Shown here piece after piece: positions 25,225 through 34,332 of a DNA stretch of 64,000 bases. Position numbers and translations under genes: made by a program. Positions within the stretch are counted from its first letter, which is position 1; each line of letters starts with the position of its first letter. Below the pieces are notes generated by a model, which ran no database searches, was not told where the DNA came from, and was given only the letters and a program-made list of their open reading frames with translations. Source of the stretch: Promethearchaeota archaeon (GTDB lineage: Archaea > Asgardarchaeota > Heimdallarchaeia > Hodarchaeales > Hodarchaeaceae); contig JBHLMN010000008.1 of NCBI GenBank assembly GCA_048938105.1, positions 174,138 to 238,137 on the forward strand. Direction: 5' to 3'.

Positions 25225-26229
25225 TTGAAGATTAAACTTATTGCCATATCTGATCTTCACCAAGGCAATCCAGTCTCTCTTCCTAGCAATATTAGAGTGG
25301 TTCAACAGGAAAAATTATTGCAAAATCTTATTCAACGTAAACCAGATGCTATTCTAATTGCTGGTGATCTTCAAGACTACTTTTGGAATCTAGGAATGGA
25401 TACGCACCATATTAATCAAATTAAAGACCAATTGAGGAATGACCCAGTATTTAATGCTTTGAACAAAGGAAAAGTTCCAGTTTATTTCATTTGGGGAAAT
25501 ACGGATGTTATGGATTTTGAAAAAGGAAAACCTTACCATGAAACTCCCGTGACTGATGAGTTACGTGAGTGGTTTTGTAATACATTTCCTAACCTTCAAG
25601 ATTGTCATAATAAAGTCAAATATATCAAAGGGATTCCGGTATTGGGATATGCTGATGCGAATAAAACCACAGATGATCATTCTGGAAAATGCTGGGATGA
25701 ACCTGCAATCCTCAAAGACTTTCAACATATGATCCAAGGTTTACGTCCAGAGGAAATCCAACAAACCATCTTTTTCACTCATACCCCCCCTCGGGGTCTC
25801 CTCGACTTTTCTAGTCTGGGAGGGCGTCACATTGGGTCATATTATTTGCGAGAGCTTATTGAAGAATTTCAACCACTTCTTTCAATCTTTGGCCACGTCC
25901 ATTATTGTGGAGGATATTCAGAATATATAAATAAAACCCAATGTATCAACGTTTCGTCCTTTGGACTAGTAGTTTCACACGAAATACTTTTTGGGCAAAG
26001 TGCTTTTGAGCTCCAAATTAATCCAGATAAAGAGGTTACTTCTACAACAATGATTGTTTCACACTATTGGGAAGGAAACCAGAAAAAAGCATTTGTTGAA
26101 TATCGTCATTGCCAAATTTGTGGAAGACACACTCCATTTGCTCGAAAACAGTTCAAAACCTGTCGCGTTTGTCTAGGCGCACGAAGGATAGAGGATAGTC
26201 AAAAGGAAATCACCAGAAATGATTGGTGA
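25225..26229 (+). CDS. Calcineurin-like metallophosphoesterase with C-terminal Zn ribbon
   Basis: SDLH, AGD, GNTD, THTPP, GHVH; CQIC...CRVC; TTG start after GAGAGG. Confidence 0.8.
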   Translation: MKIKLIAISDLHQGNPVSLPSNIRVVQQEKLLQNLIQRKPDAILIAGDLQDYFWNLGMDTHHINQIKDQLRNDPVFNALNKGKVPVYFIWGNTDVMDFEKGKPYHETPVTDELREWFCNTFPNLQDCHNKVKYIKGIPVLGYADANKTTDDHSGKCWDEPAILKDFQHMIQGLRPEEIQQTIFFTHTPPRGLLDFSSLGGRHIGSYYLRELIEEFQPLLSIFGHVHYCGGYSEYINKTQCINVSSFGLVVSHEILFGQSAFELQINPDKEVTSTTMIVSHYWEGNQKKAFVEYRHCQICGRHTPFARKQFKTCRVCLGARRIEDSQKEITRNDW

Positions 26230-26241
26230 TTACAAGCATGA

Positions 26242-27339
26242 TTATTGGAAATTGTATTCATCTAATCTTAGTTCTTTTTGCATTATAAGCATATCTTGAA
26301 GAATTGACGAGTTAATAGGAATACCTGTTTTATGACGATCAATCTCCATTTCATATTCCTTTTCACCAGCAGTATATATCCTAGTTTGACCTGGAGCCTT
26401 TGTAGAGTTTCTTAATCCTCTCACAATATCTCCTGCGATCTTTTGGAAAGTATTGAGCGGAAGGAAGCTCTCGATGTTTATGGCTAGGAAGAAATGACCC
26501 AGTTTATACCCCTTCTCAAGAGTTAAATCTTTCATAAAGGGGCCTCCTGTTAAGGCAGCAGATAATATTTCAACAGCAGTTCCATATCCATATCCTTTAT
26601 GTCCACCAAGGATTTCACCAACCCCTCCTAAAGGAAGTAATGCTGCTGTTCCTTTGATCAAGTCATTTAGTATGGTAACTGTATCTGTAGATGTTTCACC
26701 ATTTTCTTTTATCACCCAACCTGATGGAGTTGGTGTTTCTGTCCTTGCTAGGACTTCTATCTTACCTCGTTGAGTTATTGAGGTAGCACAATCAATAAGA
26801 AAAGGAAAAGGTTCATCTGTTGGGCAACCGATAGTGAGAGGATTAGTACCAAGCATAGGTTCCACTCCAAAAGTAGGAGCAATAGACGGACGAGCATTTG
26901 TTATTGTTATCCCGATCATTCCTTCATTAATTGCCATAAGTGCATAATAACCAGCTATACCAAAATGAGTTGAATTTCTAACTGCAACAGCTCCTGTTCC
27001 ATACTGCTGAGCTTTTTTTATTGCTAATTCCATCGCACGAAAAGCTGCAACATGTCCCATCCCATGACCTGCATCTATCAATGCAGTGGTTTCTGTTTCC
27101 TTAACTATCTCCAATTTTGTCTGGGGGTTTTGAATATTGGCAATAATACGATCATAATACATTTTTAGTCTTTGAACACCATGAGATTCTATTCCTCGAA
27201 GATCTGAACTTATGAGGATATCAGCACAAATTTTTGCTTCTTCTTTTGGCACTTTAAGACCAATGAAAACATCTTGCATAAAACTATGTAAAGTTTTAAC
27301 ATCTATGAATATAATATTTTCAGTCATTAGGTTCCACAC
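26242..27339 (-). CDS. Ldh_2 family (malate/L-lactate/sulfolactate dehydrogenase, ComC-like) oxidoreductase
   Basis: RGIESHG, RNSTHFG, LGTNP, GHKGYG. Confidence 0.88.
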   Translation of the reverse strand: MWNLMTENIIFIDVKTLHSFMQDVFIGLKVPKEEAKICADILISSDLRGIESHGVQRLKMYYDRIIANIQNPQTKLEIVKETETTALIDAGHGMGHVAAFRAMELAIKKAQQYGTGAVAVRNSTHFGIAGYYALMAINEGMIGITITNARPSIAPTFGVEPMLGTNPLTIGCPTDEPFPFLIDCATSITQRGKIEVLARTETPTPSGWVIKENGETSTDTVTILNDLIKGTAALLPLGGVGEILGGHKGYGYGTAVEILSAALTGGPFMKDLTLEKGYKLGHFFLAINIESFLPLNTFQKIAGDIVRGLRNSTKAPGQTRIYTAGEKEYEMEIDRHKTGIPINSSILQDMLIMQKELRLDEYNFQ

Positions 27340-27489
27340 TCATAAAAATTAAAATATTAATGAAGAATTAGTAGTTCAATCAGAATGCTTTAAAGCTTCA
27401 TTGCATTTATCAATTTTTACAGAACAAACATAAAGATTCATATGAACTAATACTGAAAACATAATTATCATTGAACGGGTTGGATTTTC

Positions 27490-28026
27490 ATGAATAACTT
27501 AGCTTTAGTGGTCATTGATATGCAAGTAGGAAATTTTACTGGACTAAATCCTATTTATAAGGGGAAAGAATTACTCTCAAATGTCCTTTCGTTGATAACT
27601 CGAATTCGATCTCTTGATGCCCCAATTATTTATGTGCAAAATAACGGTAAAAAGGGTGACCCTGATGAACCAAGTACTCCAGGATGGGATATTCATCCTA
27701 TTATTGCCCCCATTGAAGGGGATATTGTAATTCAGAAGTCGACACCTGATGCTTTCAATCAAACCTCTCTAAAATCCGAACTAGAAAAGATGAAAATTGA
27801 TAATTTAATTATTGTTGGCCTTCAATCTGAGTACTGTATTGATACTACGTGTCGGAGGGCTTTTAGTCTTGGTTATGAAGTAGTCTTGGTTGAAGATGCC
27901 CATAGCACATGGGATTCCCAGCTTCTTACAGCACAACAAATTATCAAACATCATAATAATACATTAAGTGGATTCTTTGTCACCCTAAGAAAGACTAATG
28001 ACATAATCAAAGATAACAAACTATAA
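27490..28026 (+). CDS. Isochorismatase-family cysteine hydrolase
   Basis: VVIDMQ, K..PDAF, GLQSEYCIDTT. Confidence 0.88.
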   Translation: MNNLALVVIDMQVGNFTGLNPIYKGKELLSNVLSLITRIRSLDAPIIYVQNNGKKGDPDEPSTPGWDIHPIIAPIEGDIVIQKSTPDAFNQTSLKSELEKMKIDNLIIVGLQSEYCIDTTCRRAFSLGYEVVLVEDAHSTWDSQLLTAQQIIKHHNNTLSGFFVTLRKTNDIIKDNKL

Positions 28027-28051
28027 AATGTAATCAATAGTCTATCCAGAT

Positions 28052-29494
28052 TTAATTTAGATTGTTTTTAGCTATTTTATCTAAGTCTCGTTTCAATTGG
28101 TCGTCTATTGGTTGTATGTTAGGACGTTTACTTAATTTCATTGCTATTTCTTTCGCTCTTTTCCGTGCTGATGTTTCACCACTTGCTTTCCATGAATCAC
28201 GAGTTTCTCTGTTTATTACCTGGAAACCATCAATTAGAAATGGAATATAAAGTTCTTTTCTAAATAGCTGCAGTGTTGTGGGGTGTGATAAAAGTGAAAC
28301 GCTAGGATCATAATCCATGAGGACTTCCTGAGCGAAAGGTTCACCATGATCTGTAATTCCTTGAATAAGTCTCTTTACCATACCTGCAATCTCATTATCA
28401 ATGACTACCTTCTCAAAACTCTGGGTCGACTCAAAATCTAACATCCCAGGCCCAGATATCATATTGATTCCTGCAAGTCCTGCTAGAAGAGCTCCCATAC
28501 CTCCCTCGAACCCAGCTTGGGCATCTGGGACTTTGGAATCAGATAAAGTCATATAAGCATGTGTTGGGAGTTTTAAGAACTTCCCCATTTGAGCATCTGC
28601 AATATTTATCATCATTGTTTCAATAGCACCCATTGGAGTTGTACCAAATTTCATATCAAATACAGCTGGGGATCCCCCCCATATAATCGGTGCCTTTCGT
28701 TTTGCAAGTTGAGCAATTACAAGGCCCGCTAAACTCTCTGCTGTATGTTGAGTAACACAGCCAATTAATGAAATAGGGGCGGTTGATCCAGCAAGAGGCA
28801 TACTTACGAATTCGGATGGAATTCCACTTTTTGCTGCATCAATTACGGATTGTGTGGTAAGATCTGACCACATGAGAGGAGGACTTGGACAAGCATCAAA
28901 GATAGCAAGTGGTTTTTCCTCTAACTTTCTATCAGAAGTTCTCATTACTTCTAATAGATCACGCATAATCGTAAAGCTTTCTTTTCGAAAAGTCCCTGTA
29001 ATAACAGGTTTAGAGCAGTTTAATAAAGCGAGATATAATCGGTGCCAATCTTGGGCCTCTGGTGGGACATCTGAATATACAATAGCTGTTGATTGAGCAT
29101 CAAGATAAGTTAAATGCTCAACAACTCTTGAAAACATAATAAAGTCGGATGATAAGGCCTCTCGGATATTTCTTGTTTTTAAATCTTGGATATATATTGC
29201 TGCGGACCCAGGATCAAAATGAATATTGTCTGTGGATAAATGAATCTTTTCTTTCCCATTTCGGTCGAATAAAGTTATTTCAGAAGGAACATGAGCTCGT
29301 AATTTATCGATTAAATCCTCAGGAATGAAGTAGCTCAATCCTTCATGGTTAACGCCCTCTTCTTCTAATAATCTCTGTGCTTCAGAGTTTTCAATCACTA
29401 CCCCTTGAGTATGAAGGATAGATTTCGCTTCTTGAAAGATCTTTTTTATGTATTCATCTGTTAATAATTCGATTTTTGGTCTTAAGATAGTCAA
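28052..29494 (-). CDS. mttB: Non-pyrrolysine trimethylamine methyltransferase-family (MttB/MtgB-like) methylamine:corrinoid methyltransferase
   Basis: PSPPL, GSTAPISL.G, FDMK.G...MGA.E, LSDSKVPDAQAGFE (Leu at the Pyl-equivalent position, no in-frame TAG), GPGMLDF. Confidence 0.88.
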   Translation of the reverse strand: MTILRPKIELLTDEYIKKIFQEAKSILHTQGVVIENSEAQRLLEEEGVNHEGLSYFIPEDLIDKLRAHVPSEITLFDRNGKEKIHLSTDNIHFDPGSAAIYIQDLKTRNIREALSSDFIMFSRVVEHLTYLDAQSTAIVYSDVPPEAQDWHRLYLALLNCSKPVITGTFRKESFTIMRDLLEVMRTSDRKLEEKPLAIFDACPSPPLMWSDLTTQSVIDAAKSGIPSEFVSMPLAGSTAPISLIGCVTQHTAESLAGLVIAQLAKRKAPIIWGGSPAVFDMKFGTTPMGAIETMMINIADAQMGKFLKLPTHAYMTLSDSKVPDAQAGFEGGMGALLAGLAGINMISGPGMLDFESTQSFEKVVIDNEIAGMVKRLIQGITDHGEPFAQEVLMDYDPSVSLLSHPTTLQLFRKELYIPFLIDGFQVINRETRDSWKASGETSARKRAKEIAMKLSKRPNIQPIDDQLKRDLDKIAKNNLN

Positions 29495-29497
29495 AGA

Positions 29498-30385
29498 TTA
29501 TCCTCCTGTGAGTTTATCTATAATAATACGAAGCAATTGTATGTGGGTTGGTCCAGTACCACAACATCCTCCAACAATCTGCCCATCGTGTTTGAGGATT
29601 TGTTCAAGGTCATTAACAAACTCCTGAGGAGTTTGTTTATATACTGATTTTCCATTTTCCAGTTGTGGATTTCCCGCGTTTGGTTTAATTGAGAGAGGAT
29701 ATTTTGGTGCTACAGTTCTCATGACTTGTATCAGTTCTCCGAAATCGTTACTACTTAGAGTACAATTCGATCCAATAACTGCTACTCCAGTCTCGATCAG
29801 TTCAGAAACACAGTCAACTAAAGAATTCCCCATAACTGTAAAGTATCCTTTAGGAGTCTTTTTATAAGTCATACTAGCAATGATAGGCTTATTTGATTCA
29901 ATTTGAACAGCTAGAATTGCTGCTTTCATTTCTTGTATATCAGAGAAAGTTTCAATGTGCCAAGCGTCAATGAAGGGTGAAAGAGCACGTGCTTGCTTTT
30001 GAAAGCCCTGTTTTAAATCATTAATAGATGCCTTACCTACAGGTGGGAGGAATTCTCCACTAGGTCCAATATCACCTATCACGCATTTATTTGGAGGGCA
30101 TACACTCCTTAATATTTCCCCAGAGCTCTTGTTAATATCTTCAAGAAGGTTCTGAATACCATACTTTTCAAGAGCAACACCATTTGCTCTGAAAGTGGCA
30201 GTTTGAACTAAATCACTCCCAGCGTTGTAATATCGTTCAAAAACCTCCCTGATGACCTCAGGACGATCTATGTTCCATTTATCAGGAGCTTCCCCAGGTT
30301 TTAAACCCCTACTCATTAGTTCAGTCCCCATTGCCCCATCAAATAATAAAATCTTCTTTTCCTTTAAGAGAGAGAGTAAGTCCAT
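29498..30385 (-). CDS. Stand-alone homocysteine S-methyltransferase domain (MetH Hcy-binding module)
   Basis: DGAMGTEL, GDIGPSG, GSNC, KPNAG.P, GGCCGTGP (three Zn-binding Cys). Confidence 0.9.
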   Translation of the reverse strand: MDLLSLLKEKKILLFDGAMGTELMSRGLKPGEAPDKWNIDRPEVIREVFERYYNAGSDLVQTATFRANGVALEKYGIQNLLEDINKSSGEILRSVCPPNKCVIGDIGPSGEFLPPVGKASINDLKQGFQKQARALSPFIDAWHIETFSDIQEMKAAILAVQIESNKPIIASMTYKKTPKGYFTVMGNSLVDCVSELIETGVAVIGSNCTLSSNDFGELIQVMRTVAPKYPLSIKPNAGNPQLENGKSVYKQTPQEFVNDLEQILKHDGQIVGGCCGTGPTHIQLLRIIIDKLTGG

Positions 30386-30413
30386 AAAACCTCATCCATT
30401 TATTTTCGTCGAT

Positions 30414-31070
30414 TTAAGAAAGACCAAGAAGTTGTTTCGCTTTAGTTACTGCAGCAACAGCATTTTCTGCAAAACCATCTGCTTTACATTCTTCTACCCA
30501 TTTTGAAGTAACAGGGGCGCCGCCAAGCATAACTTTGAATTTGTTTCTTATTCCCTTTTGTTCGAGTAATTCTATAACTTTCTTTTGACCTATCATGGTT
30601 GTTGTTAATAGAGCGGAAACTCCAATGAGATCAGCTTGATGTTTTTCTGCTTCAGTGATGATAACTTCAGCTTTGACGTCCGCACCCAAATCGATAACTT
30701 CAAATCCATTGGCTTTCAACATAGTAGCTACTATAGTTTTCCCTATAGTGTGGATGTCACCCTCGATAGTCGCCATCACAACCTTACCTTTTGTTTCTCT
30801 CGCTTCAGAATCTTCAAGATGAGGTGTTATAATGTCCACTGCTTCTTGCATTACTTGAGCTCCTCTCATGAGCTCAGGAAGAAAGAATTCACCTGCATCC
30901 CATAAGTCCCCAACCCTTTTAATCCCTACACCAAAACCCTTTTCGATTGCTTCGAGTAAAGGGAGTTGTTCATCTAAAGCTTTTTGAGCGAGGCTTTTTG
31001 CTTTCTCCATATCGAGTTCAACAACACTTGCTGCCATTTCTTCGTAGATTGAGTCCATAATAAGCACCAT
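30414..31070 (-). CDS. Corrinoid (B12-binding) methyl-carrier protein, MttC/MtgC-like
   Basis: Cap domain EFFLPEL; GDIHTIGK (DxHxxG), SALLTTT, GGAP. Confidence 0.92.
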   Translation of the reverse strand: MVLIMDSIYEEMAASVVELDMEKAKSLAQKALDEQLPLLEAIEKGFGVGIKRVGDLWDAGEFFLPELMRGAQVMQEAVDIITPHLEDSEARETKGKVVMATIEGDIHTIGKTIVATMLKANGFEVIDLGADVKAEVIITEAEKHQADLIGVSALLTTTMIGQKKVIELLEQKGIRNKFKVMLGGAPVTSKWVEECKADGFAENAVAAVTKAKQLLGLS

Positions 31071-31220
31071 TTAACTCAGTGATCAGAAATATCATTGATT
31101 TTTAAATTTAGTAGCAAAAGAATCGTTAATATTAGTTATCTATTTAAGTTTTCAAAATCTTTCTTTGGAGTAAAAAATGTGGAAAATCAGGTTTAGCGAA
31201 CAAAATTAAATACTGATTAT

Positions 31221-32639
31221 TTATTGTAATCCTTTCTTGAATTCTTCCATTTGGATGACTCTATTAGTTATTCGCGCTTCTTCTGCCACAAACGCCATTA
31301 AATGACTTTCTAGTGAAGCTTTGGCGCTCGTTAGGGGTTTTTCATGACCAAGGCGTAAAGAATCAAGAAACGCTTTTATCAATCCAGGATCTCCACCACC
31401 ATGCCCGCTTTCAGTATCAAATCGCATTTTTTGATCAATAATGATTTCTTCAGTCTCTTTAAAATGATCATAAAAAACTAATTTTTCTCCTGTGGAAAGA
31501 AACTCTCCGATTAGAGAGCCTTTTGTACCATCAATGCGAATTGTGCGGCCTTCTATATGTGAATGTCCATGCATTGTAAAAGTAGCAGTTGTGTTGTTTT
31601 CAAATTCAATAATAGTTACTTGATGATCTACAACGTCGTTATTAGCAAAATAAACACATTTCCCATAAGGACCTGTTCGCAAAGCTTCCCATTTTCCCTC
31701 TAAAGATAAATTTTCTGTAATGGTAGAAACTGGCCATCCTCGATATTCATAAACTTGTCGAAAGCGAGGAGCGTTCTTTAATTTTGTAAAGAGATGGGGA
31801 TAGTTCAGGGCTATGTTTCCTATAAACTTTGGGAGGCCTGAACCTCCGATTTGTACAATACGAAGTAGAGGAATAATATCAATATATATCCGTGGGGCAT
31901 AATATTTACAGGAGTCAGCTATTGGACACCCATCTAAACATCGTTTCGTTGCCCCTTCAGGGGCTTTTTCTGGTTTAAAATGTGTTAGGCTGCCAAATGA
32001 GCTTATAGATCGTGGTGGGTAACTTACAAGCCAATAAAGAATGTCTAAATCATGACATGATTTTGCTAGAATCATTGGACTCGAAATACTTTCTTTAGCC
32101 CAGTTTCCCCTAACAAAAGAATGGGCCATATGCCAGTAAGAGACGTTTTCTCTGAGATCAATTGTTATAATATCCCCTAATCGGCCTGATCGAATGGTTT
32201 CATGGATTTTAGTAAAAAAAGGAGTATACCGTAACACCTGAGCGATTATTAATTGTTGTCCTGTCTCCTCAGCCTTTTTCACTAAGAGGATGCATTCGGT
32301 AATAGTGGTGGCCATTGGTTTTTCTAGTAACACATGATAACCAAGGTTTAATGATTGTAATGCAGGTTTAGTATGCATCTGGTCTTGTGTACAGATAAAA
32401 GCTGCATCAGCTAGTTTGGAATCACTTAATAAATCCTCCCAAGTTTTAAATTGATATGAAGAAGGAATTTTATGGGCTTGAGCAAATTGTTTTCGTCGGA
32501 TTGGGTGGGGTTCTGCGACTGCAACAATCTGGAGTTCTTCAGGATGATTTAACGCATATTGCCCATAAACTGATGTACCACGATTCCCAGCACCTACTAT
32601 CACGGCATTTATGCACTCTTTTTCATGCAACACTTTCAC
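31221..32639 (-). CDS. Gfo/Idh/MocA family oxidoreductase
   Basis: GAGNRG, LEKP, AKSCHDLD, GHGGGD. Confidence 0.88.
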   Translation of the reverse strand: MKVLHEKECINAVIVGAGNRGTSVYGQYALNHPEELQIVAVAEPHPIRRKQFAQAHKIPSSYQFKTWEDLLSDSKLADAAFICTQDQMHTKPALQSLNLGYHVLLEKPMATTITECILLVKKAEETGQQLIIAQVLRYTPFFTKIHETIRSGRLGDIITIDLRENVSYWHMAHSFVRGNWAKESISSPMILAKSCHDLDILYWLVSYPPRSISSFGSLTHFKPEKAPEGATKRCLDGCPIADSCKYYAPRIYIDIIPLLRIVQIGGSGLPKFIGNIALNYPHLFTKLKNAPRFRQVYEYRGWPVSTITENLSLEGKWEALRTGPYGKCVYFANNDVVDHQVTIIEFENNTTATFTMHGHSHIEGRTIRIDGTKGSLIGEFLSTGEKLVFYDHFKETEEIIIDQKMRFDTESGHGGGDPGLIKAFLDSLRLGHEKPLTSAKASLESHLMAFVAEEARITNRVIQMEEFKKGLQ

Positions 32640-32751
32640 AATCTTTTATAATGCTAGAGAGTCAATACTCTCCCCTTTCTTAGAACTTTATTTAGATTAT
32701 CCTCAAGATTATAATTGTACTATTGGTATATGATTAGAAATAGAAGTGAAA

Positions 32752-33642
32752 TCAAGGAATTCTTCTTAAATAAGTTCTAACAATTATTAGGAGGATAAAT
32801 CCGAAAAATATCATGAACAAATCAAAGCCAGGGGTAGTTTTACCTAGAATTTTATCTAAATCAGTTCTTTCCAACTCTAGATTTAAAGCAAACTCTGCAT
32901 TATGAGATTGTTTGTAACTTCCTTCCATAGATGTAATTATTTCATATGTGAGAAGTACTCCTGTGTCTTTCTCCCAACGAAAACTTGCACTAAAGTCAAA
33001 TTGAAGACTAATTTCCTCTTCTATATTTGTCATGTTCCCTTCATAACGGATCCACATGTGATAATCGTGCTCATTATCTGCGTCATCTAGTTTTAGAATT
33101 GTTTCCATTCCTTCTAATGCTCCTGGGAGAGTAGATTGGTTCCAGATTTGTAAAGGAGAAGACAATAATTTGTCTACAGGTACTAGAAAAACCCAATCAC
33201 CGATAGTGACTCCTGAATTACTGAGTAAGAATTCATATCCAGTGCCTAGGACTCCACGACCTAATGATTCTTGGATTCCATATTCAAATAGTGTTTCTGA
33301 ACTATTAGCTATCACTGAAGTATTCCCCCAGCTGAGCTGGTAGGTTGTTATTTCCAGATTTGTTTTATTAGTAGAAAGAACTGTCATAATTATTTTTTCT
33401 TTTTCAGGAACTAAGTCATCCCCTAAGCGATAACCTTCTGTCGAAGATATAACATCAAATAATCCAGTAGAATATTTGAAATATCGAGATGCTTTTTTTA
33501 CGATGAAAGTCCAAGAATCGTCTGGTTTAACTCCAAATGAATGATTGGAGGCGCTAGAATAAATGAATACCGTACTTAGTAAAATCAAGGAAAAGAGAAT
33601 GCTAGAGACAACCCAATAAAAACGTTTAGATTTCGATCTCAC
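32752..33642 (-). CDS. Surface protein with signal peptide and PGF-type C-terminal anchor
   Basis: N-terminal TM segment; beta-rich body ending WEKDTGVLL; TTPGF + TM + RR tail. Confidence 0.7.
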   Translation of the reverse strand: MRSKSKRFYWVVSSILFSLILLSTVFIYSSASNHSFGVKPDDSWTFIVKKASRYFKYSTGLFDVISSTEGYRLGDDLVPEKEKIIMTVLSTNKTNLEITTYQLSWGNTSVIANSSETLFEYGIQESLGRGVLGTGYEFLLSNSGVTIGDWVFLVPVDKLLSSPLQIWNQSTLPGALEGMETILKLDDADNEHDYHMWIRYEGNMTNIEEEISLQFDFSASFRWEKDTGVLLTYEIITSMEGSYKQSHNAEFALNLELERTDLDKILGKTTPGFDLFMIFFGFILLIIVRTYLRRIP

Positions 33643-33876
33643 CTTAATCGAGATACATCCTGATTGGCCTAACTTATATAATTTTAGAAGAAGGAAGTAG
33701 TTTTATCTTCCATAAATCAATTTATATTTCTTCTGATTGTAGAAGACAAAGAATTCAACATAATTAAGGGAAATGATGGTGAATCCTATTTATTATTATT
33801 TATTGTCATATTTTGCTCCGAATACTGTGATTTAAAGATAAAATGTTTAAATCTTATATTATTAGCTTTTTTTATA

Positions 33877-34332
33877 CTAAGAAGCAGGTTCTATCTTGAT
33901 TTCATAATTAACCGCTGGTTTTATATGTTTTCCAATAATACAATACTTTGGAATCAAATCACAAACCCTTTGCAGAAGAAATACATCTCCACTAATATTG
34001 ATCTTACATTTGATTGTAGAAAATTCATAGTCATTTTTTGATGTATTAAACAGAATTTCGGCTGAGGTGGTGACCTTGAGGGTTTCAGGTTCAGTACGGA
34101 GGCTATCACATAATTGGAGTATTGTACTCAACGTACACGTAGCAACAGCAGCTAGAAACAAATCCTCAGGTGAGGGATGATTGGTACCTCCAAAAACTGG
34201 AGGGCAGCTGAAAGGTAAAGGCTCTTTCCATTCTGTTGTGATAAAAGATCCCTTTCTCTTCTCCTCCCAGGTAGCAACGGTCTTTATGACAAAACTCTTA
34301 GCTTCAGGTTTAATCATGGTTAAAATTTCCAT
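33877..34332 (-). CDS. OsmC/Ohr-like protein
   Basis: PPVFGG, SPEDLFLAAVATC, second Cys in PKYC. Confidence 0.8.
   Translation of the reverse strand: MEILTMIKPEAKSFVIKTVATWEEKRKGSFITTEWKEPLPFSCPPVFGGTNHPSPEDLFLAAVATCTLSTILQLCDSLRTEPETLKVTTSAEILFNTSKNDYEFSTIKCKINISGDVFLLQRVCDLIPKYCIIGKHIKPAVNYEIKIEPAS

What the first reader, a model, noticed from the sequence alone, without database searches (positions are those of the whole stretch)
28052..31070. Three-gene corrinoid / homocysteine-MT / non-Pyl MttB operon: folate-independent methionine synthesis from methylated amines
Seen: corrinoid protein, stand-alone Hcy methyltransferase (all three Zn Cys) and MttB-family gene, separated by only 28 and 3 bp. 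There is no in-frame TAG and no pterin-binding or CoM methyltransferase in the cluster. Established: non-Pyl MttBs demethylate quaternary amines (glycine betaine, carnitine, proline betaine and others) onto a cognate corrinoid protein, usually feeding THF or CoM; the MetH Hcy module takes methyl from methyl-cobalamin. Inference: methyl flows amine -> corrinoid -> homocysteine, so this MttB is biosynthetic rather than evidence of methylotrophic energy metabolism. I recall a similar betaine-linked arrangement in marine Alphaproteobacteria but not one described in archaea.
Basis: partly seen in the sequence, partly recalled or inferred. Interest (0 to 1): 0.7.

Follow-up and report, generated by a model that had tools for sequence, protein, structure and literature searches.

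The report
MttB-type split B12 methionine synthase, Asgard
Three tightly packed genes of this Asgard (Hodarchaeales-like) archaeon look like a vitamin-B12 methionine synthase whose folate-binding part is replaced by a trimethylamine-methyltransferase-family enzyme. The same cassette is conserved across Asgard archaea and many bacterial phyla, was proposed for bacteria in 2022, and has never been tested.

Summary
On the minus strand lie a corrinoid protein (30414-31070), the genome's only homocysteine S-methyltransferase (29498-30385) and a non-pyrrolysine MttB (28052-29494), with gaps of 28 and 3 bp.

The linkage is not chance:
- The order recurs in all 30 best Asgard loci.
- 48 of 80 loci from many bacterial phyla that carry this MttB clade also carry the homocysteine methyltransferase. 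There a MetH-type SAM activation protein usually joins them.

The best reading is a folate-independent, B12-dependent methionine synthase: methyl-X to corrinoid to homocysteine. The donor is unknown. The four glycine-betaine-binding residues of MtgB (Y97, R312, H348, F356) are S, H, S, E here, and that signature is nearly invariant in the clade.

This genome has no pterin:corrinoid methyltransferase, no MtrH and no activation protein. It does have one RACo/RamA-type activase and a MetE-like pair beside metK. Across 33 Asgard genomes the activation protein and the activase are almost mutually exclusive, which suggests the reactivation module was swapped.

Williams et al. 2022 (PMC9324843) already proposed the cluster and this idea for bacteria. 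MtgBCDE (PMC12478193) is the closest tested system. This scan has noted the cassette before on other DNA (230 findings in at least 198 genomes), including Asgard genomes.

The parts
30414..31070 (-). Corrinoid (B12-binding) carrier protein, MtgC/MtbC-like: cap domain plus Rossmann B12 domain
   Evidence: PF02607 and PF02310. TIGR02370 at 218.7 bits against a cut-off of 215.3. DxHxxG (D105, H107, G110), SxL (S152, L154) and GG (183-184) are invariant in 38 cassette homologues. It is one of only two methyltransferase-type corrinoid proteins in the genome.
29498..30385 (-). Stand-alone homocysteine S-methyltransferase (MetH Hcy-module / MtgE-like), the proposed methyl acceptor module
   Evidence: PF02574, E 5.5e-61. 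The best solved match is the Hcy domain of Thermotoga MetH, 1q7m, at 158 bits; BHMT scores only 55 bits. The zinc ligands C208, C274 and C275 are invariant. It is the only PF02574 gene in the genome. A complex model with the corrinoid protein gave weak support: ipSAE 0.53 against a best control of 0.00.
28052..29494 (-). Non-pyrrolysine MttB-superfamily methyltransferase, the proposed methyl-donor module, substrate unknown
   Evidence: PF06253, E 4.8e-73. Leu317 (TTA) sits at the Pyl position. The pocket signature S97-H312-L317-S347-E355 is nearly invariant in the clade. It groups in an Asgard clade with 99% support, beside the bacterial cassette clade. The TTG start is preceded by GGAGGA.
31071..31220 (-). 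Upstream intergenic region with an A/T-rich TATA-like box about 30 nt before the ATG; putative promoter of the three-gene transcript (inference only)
   Evidence: Read directly from the sequence. No Rfam riboswitch was found at 26000-34000 at E<=1.

Best explanation
The three genes encode a three-component, cobalamin-dependent methyl-X:homocysteine methyltransferase. In effect it is a methionine synthase built like MetH, with an MttB-family TIM-barrel enzyme in place of the methyl-tetrahydrofolate module.

Proposed cycle:
1. MttB takes a methyl group from a still unknown small methylated compound. This compound is not glycine betaine of the MtgB type.
2. MttB passes the methyl group to Co(I) of the corrinoid protein.
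3. The zinc-dependent homocysteine methyltransferase moves it from methyl-Co(III) to homocysteine, giving methionine and regenerating Co(I).
4. Accidentally oxidised Co(II) is probably repaired by the genome's single RACo/RamA-type ATP-dependent reductive activase (contig C31). This lineage has lost the SAM-dependent activation protein that sister lineages keep in the operon.

The system works beside a MetE-like enzyme, not instead of it, and it salvages methyl groups directly into the methionine/SAM pool.

Shown: gene content, motifs, conserved linkage, genome inventory. Inferred: direction of flow, the donor, the reactivation route.
For: Anatomy and motifs are documented.

Conserved order:
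- Corrinoid-HcyMT-MttB is kept in 30 of 30 Asgard loci down to 47% HcyMT identity.
- Families f4 and f7 have corrinoid-HcyMT-activation-MttB. The extra gene hits PF02965, carries an RxxxGY motif and matches Thermotoga TM0269, 1j6r.
- A sub-lineage of the same genus has corrinoid-HcyMT-MttB-activation.
- Of 80 bacterial loci with the same MttB clade, 37 are CEAB and 48 in all contain the HcyMT.

Own genome:
- The only Pterin_bind gene is DHPS: TIGR01496 at 197.7 bits against a cut-off of 162.6.
- No MtrH and no PF02965.
- One RACo activase.

Activation protein versus RACo in 33 Asgard cassette genomes:
- 13 have only the activation protein.
- 17 have only RACo.
- 3 have both; none has neither.
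- The split also occurs inside one genus.

13 of 20 bacterial cassette genomes also carry a long canonical MetH ORF, so the cassette is an additional synthase using a donor other than methyl-THF.

Published support: the hypothesis for the bacterial cluster (PMC9324843), and genetics showing that one corrinoid protein serves both an MttB-family enzyme and a Hcy module in Ruegeria (PMC12478193).
Against: - There is no biochemical or expression evidence.
- The donor is unknown.
- No transporter or substrate-producing gene is consistently linked.
- The genome also has a MetE-like pair with an HxC...E...C zinc site beside metK, and an MTHFR. The cassette is therefore not needed for methionine prototrophy.
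- Five URO-D-family genes elsewhere could be other acceptors for methyl-corrinoid.
- The RACo activase is unlinked to the cassette. In Lokiarchaeia it may serve the Wood-Ljungdahl corrinoid protein instead.
- The complex model gave only weak support, and likeness to solved MetH structures could explain that pass.
Confidence: 0.65

Rival explanations
1. Catabolic hub. MttB and the corrinoid protein are mainly a demethylase for growth on a methylated compound. The methyl-corrinoid goes mostly to another acceptor (a URO-D-type MT2 or an unknown carrier), and the homocysteine methyltransferase is only a side outlet, as MtgE is in the MtgBCDE system.
For: - In Ruegeria the shared MtgC serves both catabolism and methionine synthesis.
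- The genome has four MttB paralogues and a non-Pyl MtmB homologue, but only two corrinoid proteins.
- It has five URO-D-family genes.
- Some Lokiarchaeia loci place extra MttB paralogues next to the cassette.
- Bacterial relatives of the same MttB clade occur as RamA-corrinoid-MttB without the HcyMT.
Against: - No pterin:corrinoid methyltransferase or MtrH exists in the genome to feed a C1 oxidation pathway.
- No URO-D gene is linked to either corrinoid protein here.
- The HcyMT is the acceptor that stays glued to the corrinoid gene across Asgard and many bacterial phyla.
Confidence: 0.15
2. True split MetH on a pterin. This MttB clade binds a methyl-pterin (methyl-THF or methyl-H4MPT) rather than an amine, so the cassette is a housekeeping methionine synthase drawing on the central C1 pool.
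For: - The cassette is single-copy and very widely conserved.
- It has no linked transporter.
- Its pocket lacks the aromatic and arginine residues of quaternary-amine enzymes.
- The genome makes a methyl-pterin (MTHFR) but has no known pterin:corrinoid methyltransferase.
Against: - 13 of 20 bacterial cassette genomes also have a full MetH with its own pterin module, which would make the cassette redundant.
- To my knowledge, no MttB-superfamily member is known to bind a pterin.
- A MetE-like enzyme is present for the pterin route.
Confidence: 0.08
3. Independent enzymes. The homocysteine methyltransferase works alone, like BHMT, MmuM or Phaeobacter Bmt, using betaine, DMSP or S-methylmethionine directly. 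It is merely co-regulated with an unrelated MttB/corrinoid pair.
For: - Phaeobacter Bmt, a homologous stand-alone Hcy module, made methionine directly from DMSP and betaine in vitro (PMC12366255).
- NCBIfam's 'betaine--homocysteine S-methyltransferase' model scores 179.6 bits, below its cut-off of 338.
Against: - The protein is closer to the MetH Hcy domain (158 bits) than to BHMT (55 bits) or MmuM (49 bits).
- The HcyMT gene is nearly always immediately next to the corrinoid gene.
- In most lineages a cobalamin activation protein joins them, which makes no sense for a cofactor-free enzyme.
- Genetics in Phaeobacter and Ruegeria show the homologue needs the corrinoid protein in vivo.
Confidence: 0.07

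Closest known systems
Four-gene cluster of Williams et al. 2022 (Ca. [quoted passage not shown]
   Same: It has the same three core genes. The MttB belongs to the same clade as the bacterial cassette loci, with the same S-H-L-S-E pocket. The hypothesis is the same: corrinoid-dependent methionine synthesis from an unknown donor. That cluster also sits beside another methionine synthase.
   Different: Here the host is an Asgard archaeon. The cassette has three genes, without the activation protein. The second synthase is MetE-like, not MetH. Reactivation is probably by a RACo/RamA-type activase.
MtgBCDE of Ruegeria pomeroyi / Phaeobacter inhibens / Sinorhizobium meliloti (PMC12478193)
   Same: Separate MttB-family (MtgB), corrinoid (MtgC) and Hcy-module (MtgE) proteins share one cobalamin carrier. 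A RamA-type activase is used.
   Different: No pterin module (MtgD) exists anywhere in this genome. The MttB lacks the glycine-betaine residues. The genes form one tight operon, whereas mtgE is usually unlinked in marine bacteria. The organism is anaerobe-like and archaeal.
Cobalamin-dependent methionine synthase MetH, including the split Thermotoga form (TM0268 + TM0269)
   Same: It has a Hcy module with a Cys3 zinc site and a cap plus B12 domain with DxHxxG/SxL/GG. In sister lineages there is a stand-alone TM0269-like activation protein.
   Different: There is no methyl-THF (pterin) module; an MttB TIM barrel stands in its place. All modules are separate proteins, and this genome has no activation domain.
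MtgB/MtgC/MtgA glycine betaine:THF system of Desulfitobacterium hafniense and the MtgB/MtgC/MtaA system of Methanolobus vulcani
   Same: A non-Pyl MttB-family enzyme methylates a cognate corrinoid protein encoded next to it.
   Different: The acceptor module is a homocysteine methyltransferase, not a THF or CoM methyltransferase. The substrate residues Y97, R312, H348 and F356 are replaced. Similarity to MtgB is only about 175 bits, no closer than to Pyl-MttB.

Membership tests
MttB superfamily (PF06253), non-pyrrolysine branch | Full-length match to the MTTB profile | tested here: met
   PF06253, E 4.8e-73, profile positions 29-490 of 500. Solved MttB and MtgB chains match at 175-182 bits.
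MttB superfamily (PF06253), non-pyrrolysine branch | No in-frame UAG; an ordinary residue at the pyrrolysine position | tested here: met
   The ORF is uninterrupted. Leu317 (TTA) aligns with Pyl of 7xcl.
MtgB (glycine betaine:corrinoid methyltransferase) | Glycine-betaine-binding residues Y97, R312, H348, F356 (PMC13080624) | tested here: not met
   The equivalents are S97, H312, S347 and E355. As a column check, a close MtgB relative (P0257, 501 bits to 9yce) reads Y-R-L-H-Y in the same alignment.
MetH-type cobalamin-dependent methionine synthase (split form) | Homocysteine module with three zinc-binding cysteines | tested here: met
   PF02574. C208, C274 and C275 are invariant in 38 homologues. 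The best PDB match is the MetH Hcy domain.
MetH-type cobalamin-dependent methionine synthase (split form) | Cap plus B12-binding domain with DxHxxG, SxL, GG | tested here: met
MetH-type cobalamin-dependent methionine synthase (split form) | Pterin-binding (methyl-THF) module | tested here: not met
   The only PF00809 gene in the 99%-complete genome is DHPS, beside a CofE-like gene.
MetH-type cobalamin-dependent methionine synthase (split form) | SAM-binding activation domain (PF02965) | tested here: not met
   No PF02965 hit, and no tblastn hit below E 0.08 with eight cassette activation proteins. The domain is present in the operons of families f4 and f7 and of a sub-lineage of the same genus.
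MtgBCDE (Ruegeria-type dual GBT methyltransferase / split methionine synthase) | Bidirectional pterin module MtgD | tested here: not met
MtgBCDE (Ruegeria-type dual GBT methyltransferase / split methionine synthase) | MtgB + MtgC + MtgE homologues and a RamA-type activase | tested here: met
   DUF1638 was not searched.
Williams 2022 MttB-HcyMT-corrinoid-activation cluster | MttB homologue of the uncharacterised clade, linked to HcyMT and corrinoid protein | tested here: met
   The MttB is in the same clade, with the same pocket signature, as bacterial CEAB loci. I did not place the Electryoneota sequences themselves; the paper's supplement was not available.
Williams 2022 MttB-HcyMT-corrinoid-activation cluster | Activation protein in the cluster | tested here: not met
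BHMT / MmuM-type cofactor-free homocysteine methyltransferases | Direct use of betaine or S-methylmethionine without cobalamin | not testable with these tools
   Only relative similarity is available: MetH Hcy domain 158 bits, BHMT 55 bits, MmuM 49 bits.

The most novel reading that the evidence does not exclude
The S-H-L-S-E pocket clade of MttB uses a methyl-donor class not yet known for the superfamily. The donor would be a non-acidic or non-quaternary N-methyl (or other) compound handled without pyrrolysine, possibly tied to the cysteine-hydrolase (isochorismatase-family) gene that recurs next to the cassette. This would define a third kind of B12-dependent methionine synthase, spread through Asgard archaea and more than ten bacterial phyla, in which SAM-dependent and ATP-dependent reactivation modules are interchangeable.
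Probability: 0.35. Interest if true: 0.75.

Novelty: new variant of a known kind. Interest (0 to 1): 0.45.

Why it matters
If the reading holds, many Asgard archaea and uncultured sediment and soil bacteria make methionine, and hence SAM, directly from an environmental or metabolic methyl compound, without folate or methanopterin. That would alter several things:
- how MttB genes in metagenomes are read, since they are now routinely scored as trimethylamine or betaine methylotrophy, or as methanogenesis potential;
- estimates of B12 demand in these communities;
- reconstructions of one-carbon metabolism in the closest archaeal relatives of eukaryotes.

The conserved pocket signature and the activator swap give concrete handles for the first biochemical test of a hypothesis that has stood untested since 2022.

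Tried and rejected
- **Glycine betaine or another acidic quaternary amine as donor:** rejected at residue level.
- **Methyl-H4MPT entry through MtrH, or methyl-THF entry through an AcsE/MtgA/MetH-type module:** no such genes in the genome.
- **Riboswitch or other Rfam element upstream of the operon:** none in the window, and none in 14 bacterial loci. The PYLIS_3 hit inside mttB is coding-sequence conservation.
- **Substrate hint from flanking genes of 48 bacterial loci:** no recurrent transporter. Only isochorismatase-family genes recur (11 of 45 downstream ORFs, essentially one lineage), followed by peptidase M49 (5 of 35).
- **Isochorismatase as part of the Asgard system:** not conserved within the genus, so it is kept only as a lead.
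- **Contamination as the origin of the cassette:** rejected. Neighbouring genes are syntenic with same-genus genomes, and the nearest MttBs are from Hodarchaeales MAGs.
- **Supplement of PMC9324843 (Table S4):** not held.
- **Complex model of HcyMT with the corrinoid protein:** weak support only. ipSAE was 0.53 against a best control of 0.00, partner pLDDT at least 79, and runs agreed in at least 60% of contacts. At 0.60 or under, only 7 of 80 solved complexes passed, and so did both passing mismatches of 110. The pass may also reflect likeness to solved MetH.
- **CdhD search:** gave only partial hits, so the presence of a Wood-Ljungdahl corrinoid protein was not settled.
Full report
**1. Observation**

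The window is G000:C49:174138-238137 of a 5.85-Mb genome that is 99% complete and 7% contaminated. Three minus-strand ORFs lie exactly where stated:
- 30414-31070: 218 aa, B12-binding_2 + B12-binding; the 'methyltransferase cognate corrinoid protein' model is passed at 218.7 bits.
- 29498-30385: 295 aa, S-methyl_trans, E 5.5e-61.
- 28052-29494: 480 aa, MTTB, E 4.8e-73.

The gaps are 28 and 3 bp. The TTG start of mttB sits 8 nt after GGAGGA, and the HcyMT start follows GGATGAGG. The corrinoid protein has DIHTIG, SAL and GG. The HcyMT has Cys208, Cys274 and Cys275. MttB has no internal stop, and Leu317 (TTA) aligns with pyrrolysine of the Methanosarcina enzyme.

The nearest relatives of MttB are annotated as coming from Hodarchaeales/Hodarchaeota MAGs. 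The flanking genes are syntenic with same-genus genomes. The cassette therefore belongs to the Asgard genome and not to a contaminant.

**2. The linkage is conserved far beyond chance**

A homologue of the HcyMT occurs in 161 of 399 genomes of the phylum. In all 30 best loci (own genus and a large second family, apparently Lokiarchaeia by the names) the order corrinoid-HcyMT-MttB is kept. This holds although HcyMT identity falls to 47%, while MttB stays at 60-80%.

In two further families of the same class, a gene of about 215 aa lies between HcyMT and MttB. That gene:
- hits the MetH activation domain, PF02965, E 4e-8 to 5e-10;
- carries an R-x-S-P-G-Y motif, which from my own knowledge is the RxxxGY AdoMet signature of MetH;
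- has a C-terminal CxxC...C motif;
- weakly matches the stand-alone activation protein of Thermotoga, 1j6r.

A sub-lineage of the window's own genus has corrinoid-HcyMT-MttB-activation.

Outside the archaea, a scan of one genome per species with an alignment of this MttB clade returned 80 bacterial loci. The record titles name CSSED10-310, Zixibacteria, Krumholzibacteriota, Acidobacteriota including Aminicenantes and Thermoanaerobaculia, Ignavibacteria, Myxococcota, Gemmatimonadota, KSB1 and others. Their architectures:
- 37 are corrinoid-HcyMT-activation-MttB, and 48 in all contain the HcyMT.
- The rest are RamA-corrinoid-MttB, corrinoid-activation-MttB or similar.

Metagenome contigs show the four ORFs overlapping by a few bases.

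In a FastTree phylogeny the Asgard cassette MttBs form one clade (99% local support), beside the main bacterial clade. The four-gene forms branch at its base and the three-gene forms are derived. The window's cassette is thus a form that has lost the activation gene.

**3.

- HcyMT: only this copy.
- Full MetH: none.
- Pterin_bind: a single gene, which is DHPS (TIGR01496 197.7 against 162.6), next to a CofE-like gene.
- MtrH: none.
- Activation domain: none by profile, and none by tblastn with eight cassette activation proteins.
- RACo/RamA-type reductive activase: one, 633 aa, on C31 beside a ferredoxin-like gene.
- MetE: a divergent two-gene MetE-like pair immediately upstream of metK. The C-terminal protein has HTC...E...DCGL, the pattern of the MetE zinc site.
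- MTHFR: present.
- MttB paralogues: four, and only this one has a corrinoid gene beside it.
- Methyltransferase-type corrinoid proteins: two. The other is paired with a non-Pyl MtmB homologue.
- URO-D-family genes: five, all elsewhere.

No route from methyl-corrinoid to a pterin is visible, and homocysteine is the only acceptor encoded with the carrier.

**4. What the donor is not**

Picking et al. 2026 (PMC13080624) showed that MtgB binds glycine betaine through Y97 and F356 (cation-pi) and through R312 and H348 (carboxylate). They also showed that R312 is conserved in all characterised members, whose substrates are all acidic quaternary amines.

In the phmmer alignment to 9yce (chain numbering = native minus 2), the equivalents here are S97, H312, S347 and E355. 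In a MAFFT alignment of 132 family members:
- 79 read exactly S-H-L-S-E at these columns plus the Pyl column, and most of the rest of the clade differ at one position, whatever the operon architecture;
- the genome's other three paralogues read differently;
- a close MtgB relative reads Y-R-L-H-Y, which validates the columns.

The clade therefore shares one conserved pocket that is unlike MtgB. The glutamate where MtgB has its cation-pi phenylalanine would suit a cationic substrate without a carboxylate, but this is speculation.

Methyl-THF is unlikely as donor, because 13 of 20 bacterial cassette genomes also have a long canonical MetH ORF. Flanking genes give no transporter signal.

**5. Reactivation**

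Across 33 Asgard genomes that carry the cassette:
- 13 have the activation protein and no RACo;
- 17, including the window's genome, have RACo and no activation protein;
- 3 have both, and none has neither.

The contrast recurs inside the window's genus. Five genomes with corrinoid-HcyMT-MttB-activation (synteny verified in four of them) lack RACo. All twelve genomes of the three-gene type have it.

These genomes are related, so only a few independent events are involved, and in Lokiarchaeia RACo may serve another corrinoid protein. Even so, the pattern fits interchangeable repair modules. It makes the C31 activase the likely partner here.

**6. Protein contact**

A complex model of the HcyMT with the corrinoid protein, each given as an alignment of 38 rows, scored ipSAE 0.53 against a best control of 0.00. 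Partner pLDDT was at least 79, and the runs agreed in at least 60% of contacts. The verdict was 'weak support': at 0.60 or under, only 7 of 80 solved complexes passed, along with both of the 110 mismatches that passed. Solved MetH structures may also explain the pass. I give it little weight.

**7. Comparison with what is known**

- Williams et al. [quoted passage not shown] Electryoneota and 'diverse bacteria'. They proposed a novel corrinoid-dependent methionine synthesis from an unknown donor, beside a normal MetH.
- Mausz et al. 2025 (PMC12478193) showed genetically that in Ruegeria one corrinoid protein serves an MttB-family betaine methyltransferase, a bidirectional pterin module and a Hcy module.
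- The present cassette is the archaeal, three-gene, pterin-free and activation-free form.
- My literature searches found no description of it in archaea. The Asgard wetland paper discusses a different MttB-like/MtbC/MtrH neighbourhood.
- This scan has noted the cassette many times on other DNA (230 findings in at least 198 genomes), including Asgard and Hodarchaeota genomes. I reached the same reading and the same 2022 paper independently, before that look-up.

**8. Verdict**

The feature is real and strongly conserved, and it is most likely a folate-independent B12 methionine synthase with an MttB-type donor module (confidence 0.65). It is wrong or unsupported on the donor class. The claim that no archaeal case had been described held up in my literature searches, though this scan had already noted Asgard examples.

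No function has been tested for any member.

Noticed in passing
window 27490-28026 (+); also L116:5977-6630, L148:5981-6640, L109:5984-6736 and others: An isochorismatase-family cysteine hydrolase ends 25 bp from the end of mttB, in convergent orientation. It is one of only three such genes in the genome. A distant member of the same family (21-28% identity, same weak NCBIfam profile: PRK11440/BiuH/RutB) lies in-operon directly after mttB in 11 of 45 bacterial cassette loci, mostly Krumholzibacteriota. It is not conserved within the window's genus. This is a possible hint that the donor or its product is an amide or ureido compound.
   Followed up: partly
window 28447-28546 (-): An Rfam PYLIS_3 ('pyrrolysine insertion sequence mttB') match at 52.9 bits against a gathering score of 38, E 7e-9. 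It starts exactly at the Leu317 codon (TTA) that replaces the UAG. A similar hit occurs in a bacterial cassette mttB, L093:5476-5575. It is most simply conservation of the coding sequence, not a working recoding signal.
   Followed up: partly
G000:C27, L033:7107-9158 (-): The genome's second methyltransferase-type corrinoid protein (221 aa) abuts a 461-aa MtmB homologue with no gap between the genes (PF05369, E 6e-97) and no in-frame stop, that is, a non-pyrrolysine MtmB. A non-Pyl MtmB homologue was recently tied to tetramethylammonium and choline use in Methanococcoides (PMC13044021, title seen).
   Followed up: no
G000:C52, L013:6397-10006 (+): A two-gene MetE-like pair (357 aa with a weak Meth_synt_1 hit, then 423 aa Meth_synt_2 with HTC...E...DCGL) overlaps by 4 bp and is followed by a bacterial-type three-domain SAM synthetase.
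   Followed up: partly
L075:2833-8892 and L078:4435-10619 (Lokiarchaeia-type genomes G168, G147): One or two extra, distant MttB paralogues (26-30% identity, different pocket residues) sit directly beside the corrinoid-HcyMT-MttB cassette. In G168 the order is MttB-corrinoid-HcyMT. Several donors may feed one carrier.
   Followed up: partly
L071:4318-4977, L070:5893-6537, L176:4097-4615 and bacterial homologues: The stand-alone activation proteins of the cassette end in a conserved Cys motif (CxxC, then a third Cys 4-5 residues on, followed by basic residues) that I do not recall in the E. coli MetH activation domain. It may be a metal or redox site.
   Followed up: no
window 31221-32639 (-) and 26242-27339 (-): A 472-aa GFO/IDH/MocA oxidoreductase lies 150 bp upstream, and an Ldh_2-family dehydrogenase lies downstream, both on the cassette strand. 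Both flank the cassette in several genomes of the genus but not in other families. This is probably local synteny only.
   Followed up: partly
G000:C6, L009:6879-9965: The best-scoring MttB paralogue of the genome (510 aa, 339 bits) keeps Arg at the R312 position (pattern H-R-C-N-G). It lies back to back with an MFS_2 transporter and has no corrinoid gene nearby. It is a better candidate than the cassette enzyme for an acidic quaternary amine.
   Followed up: no
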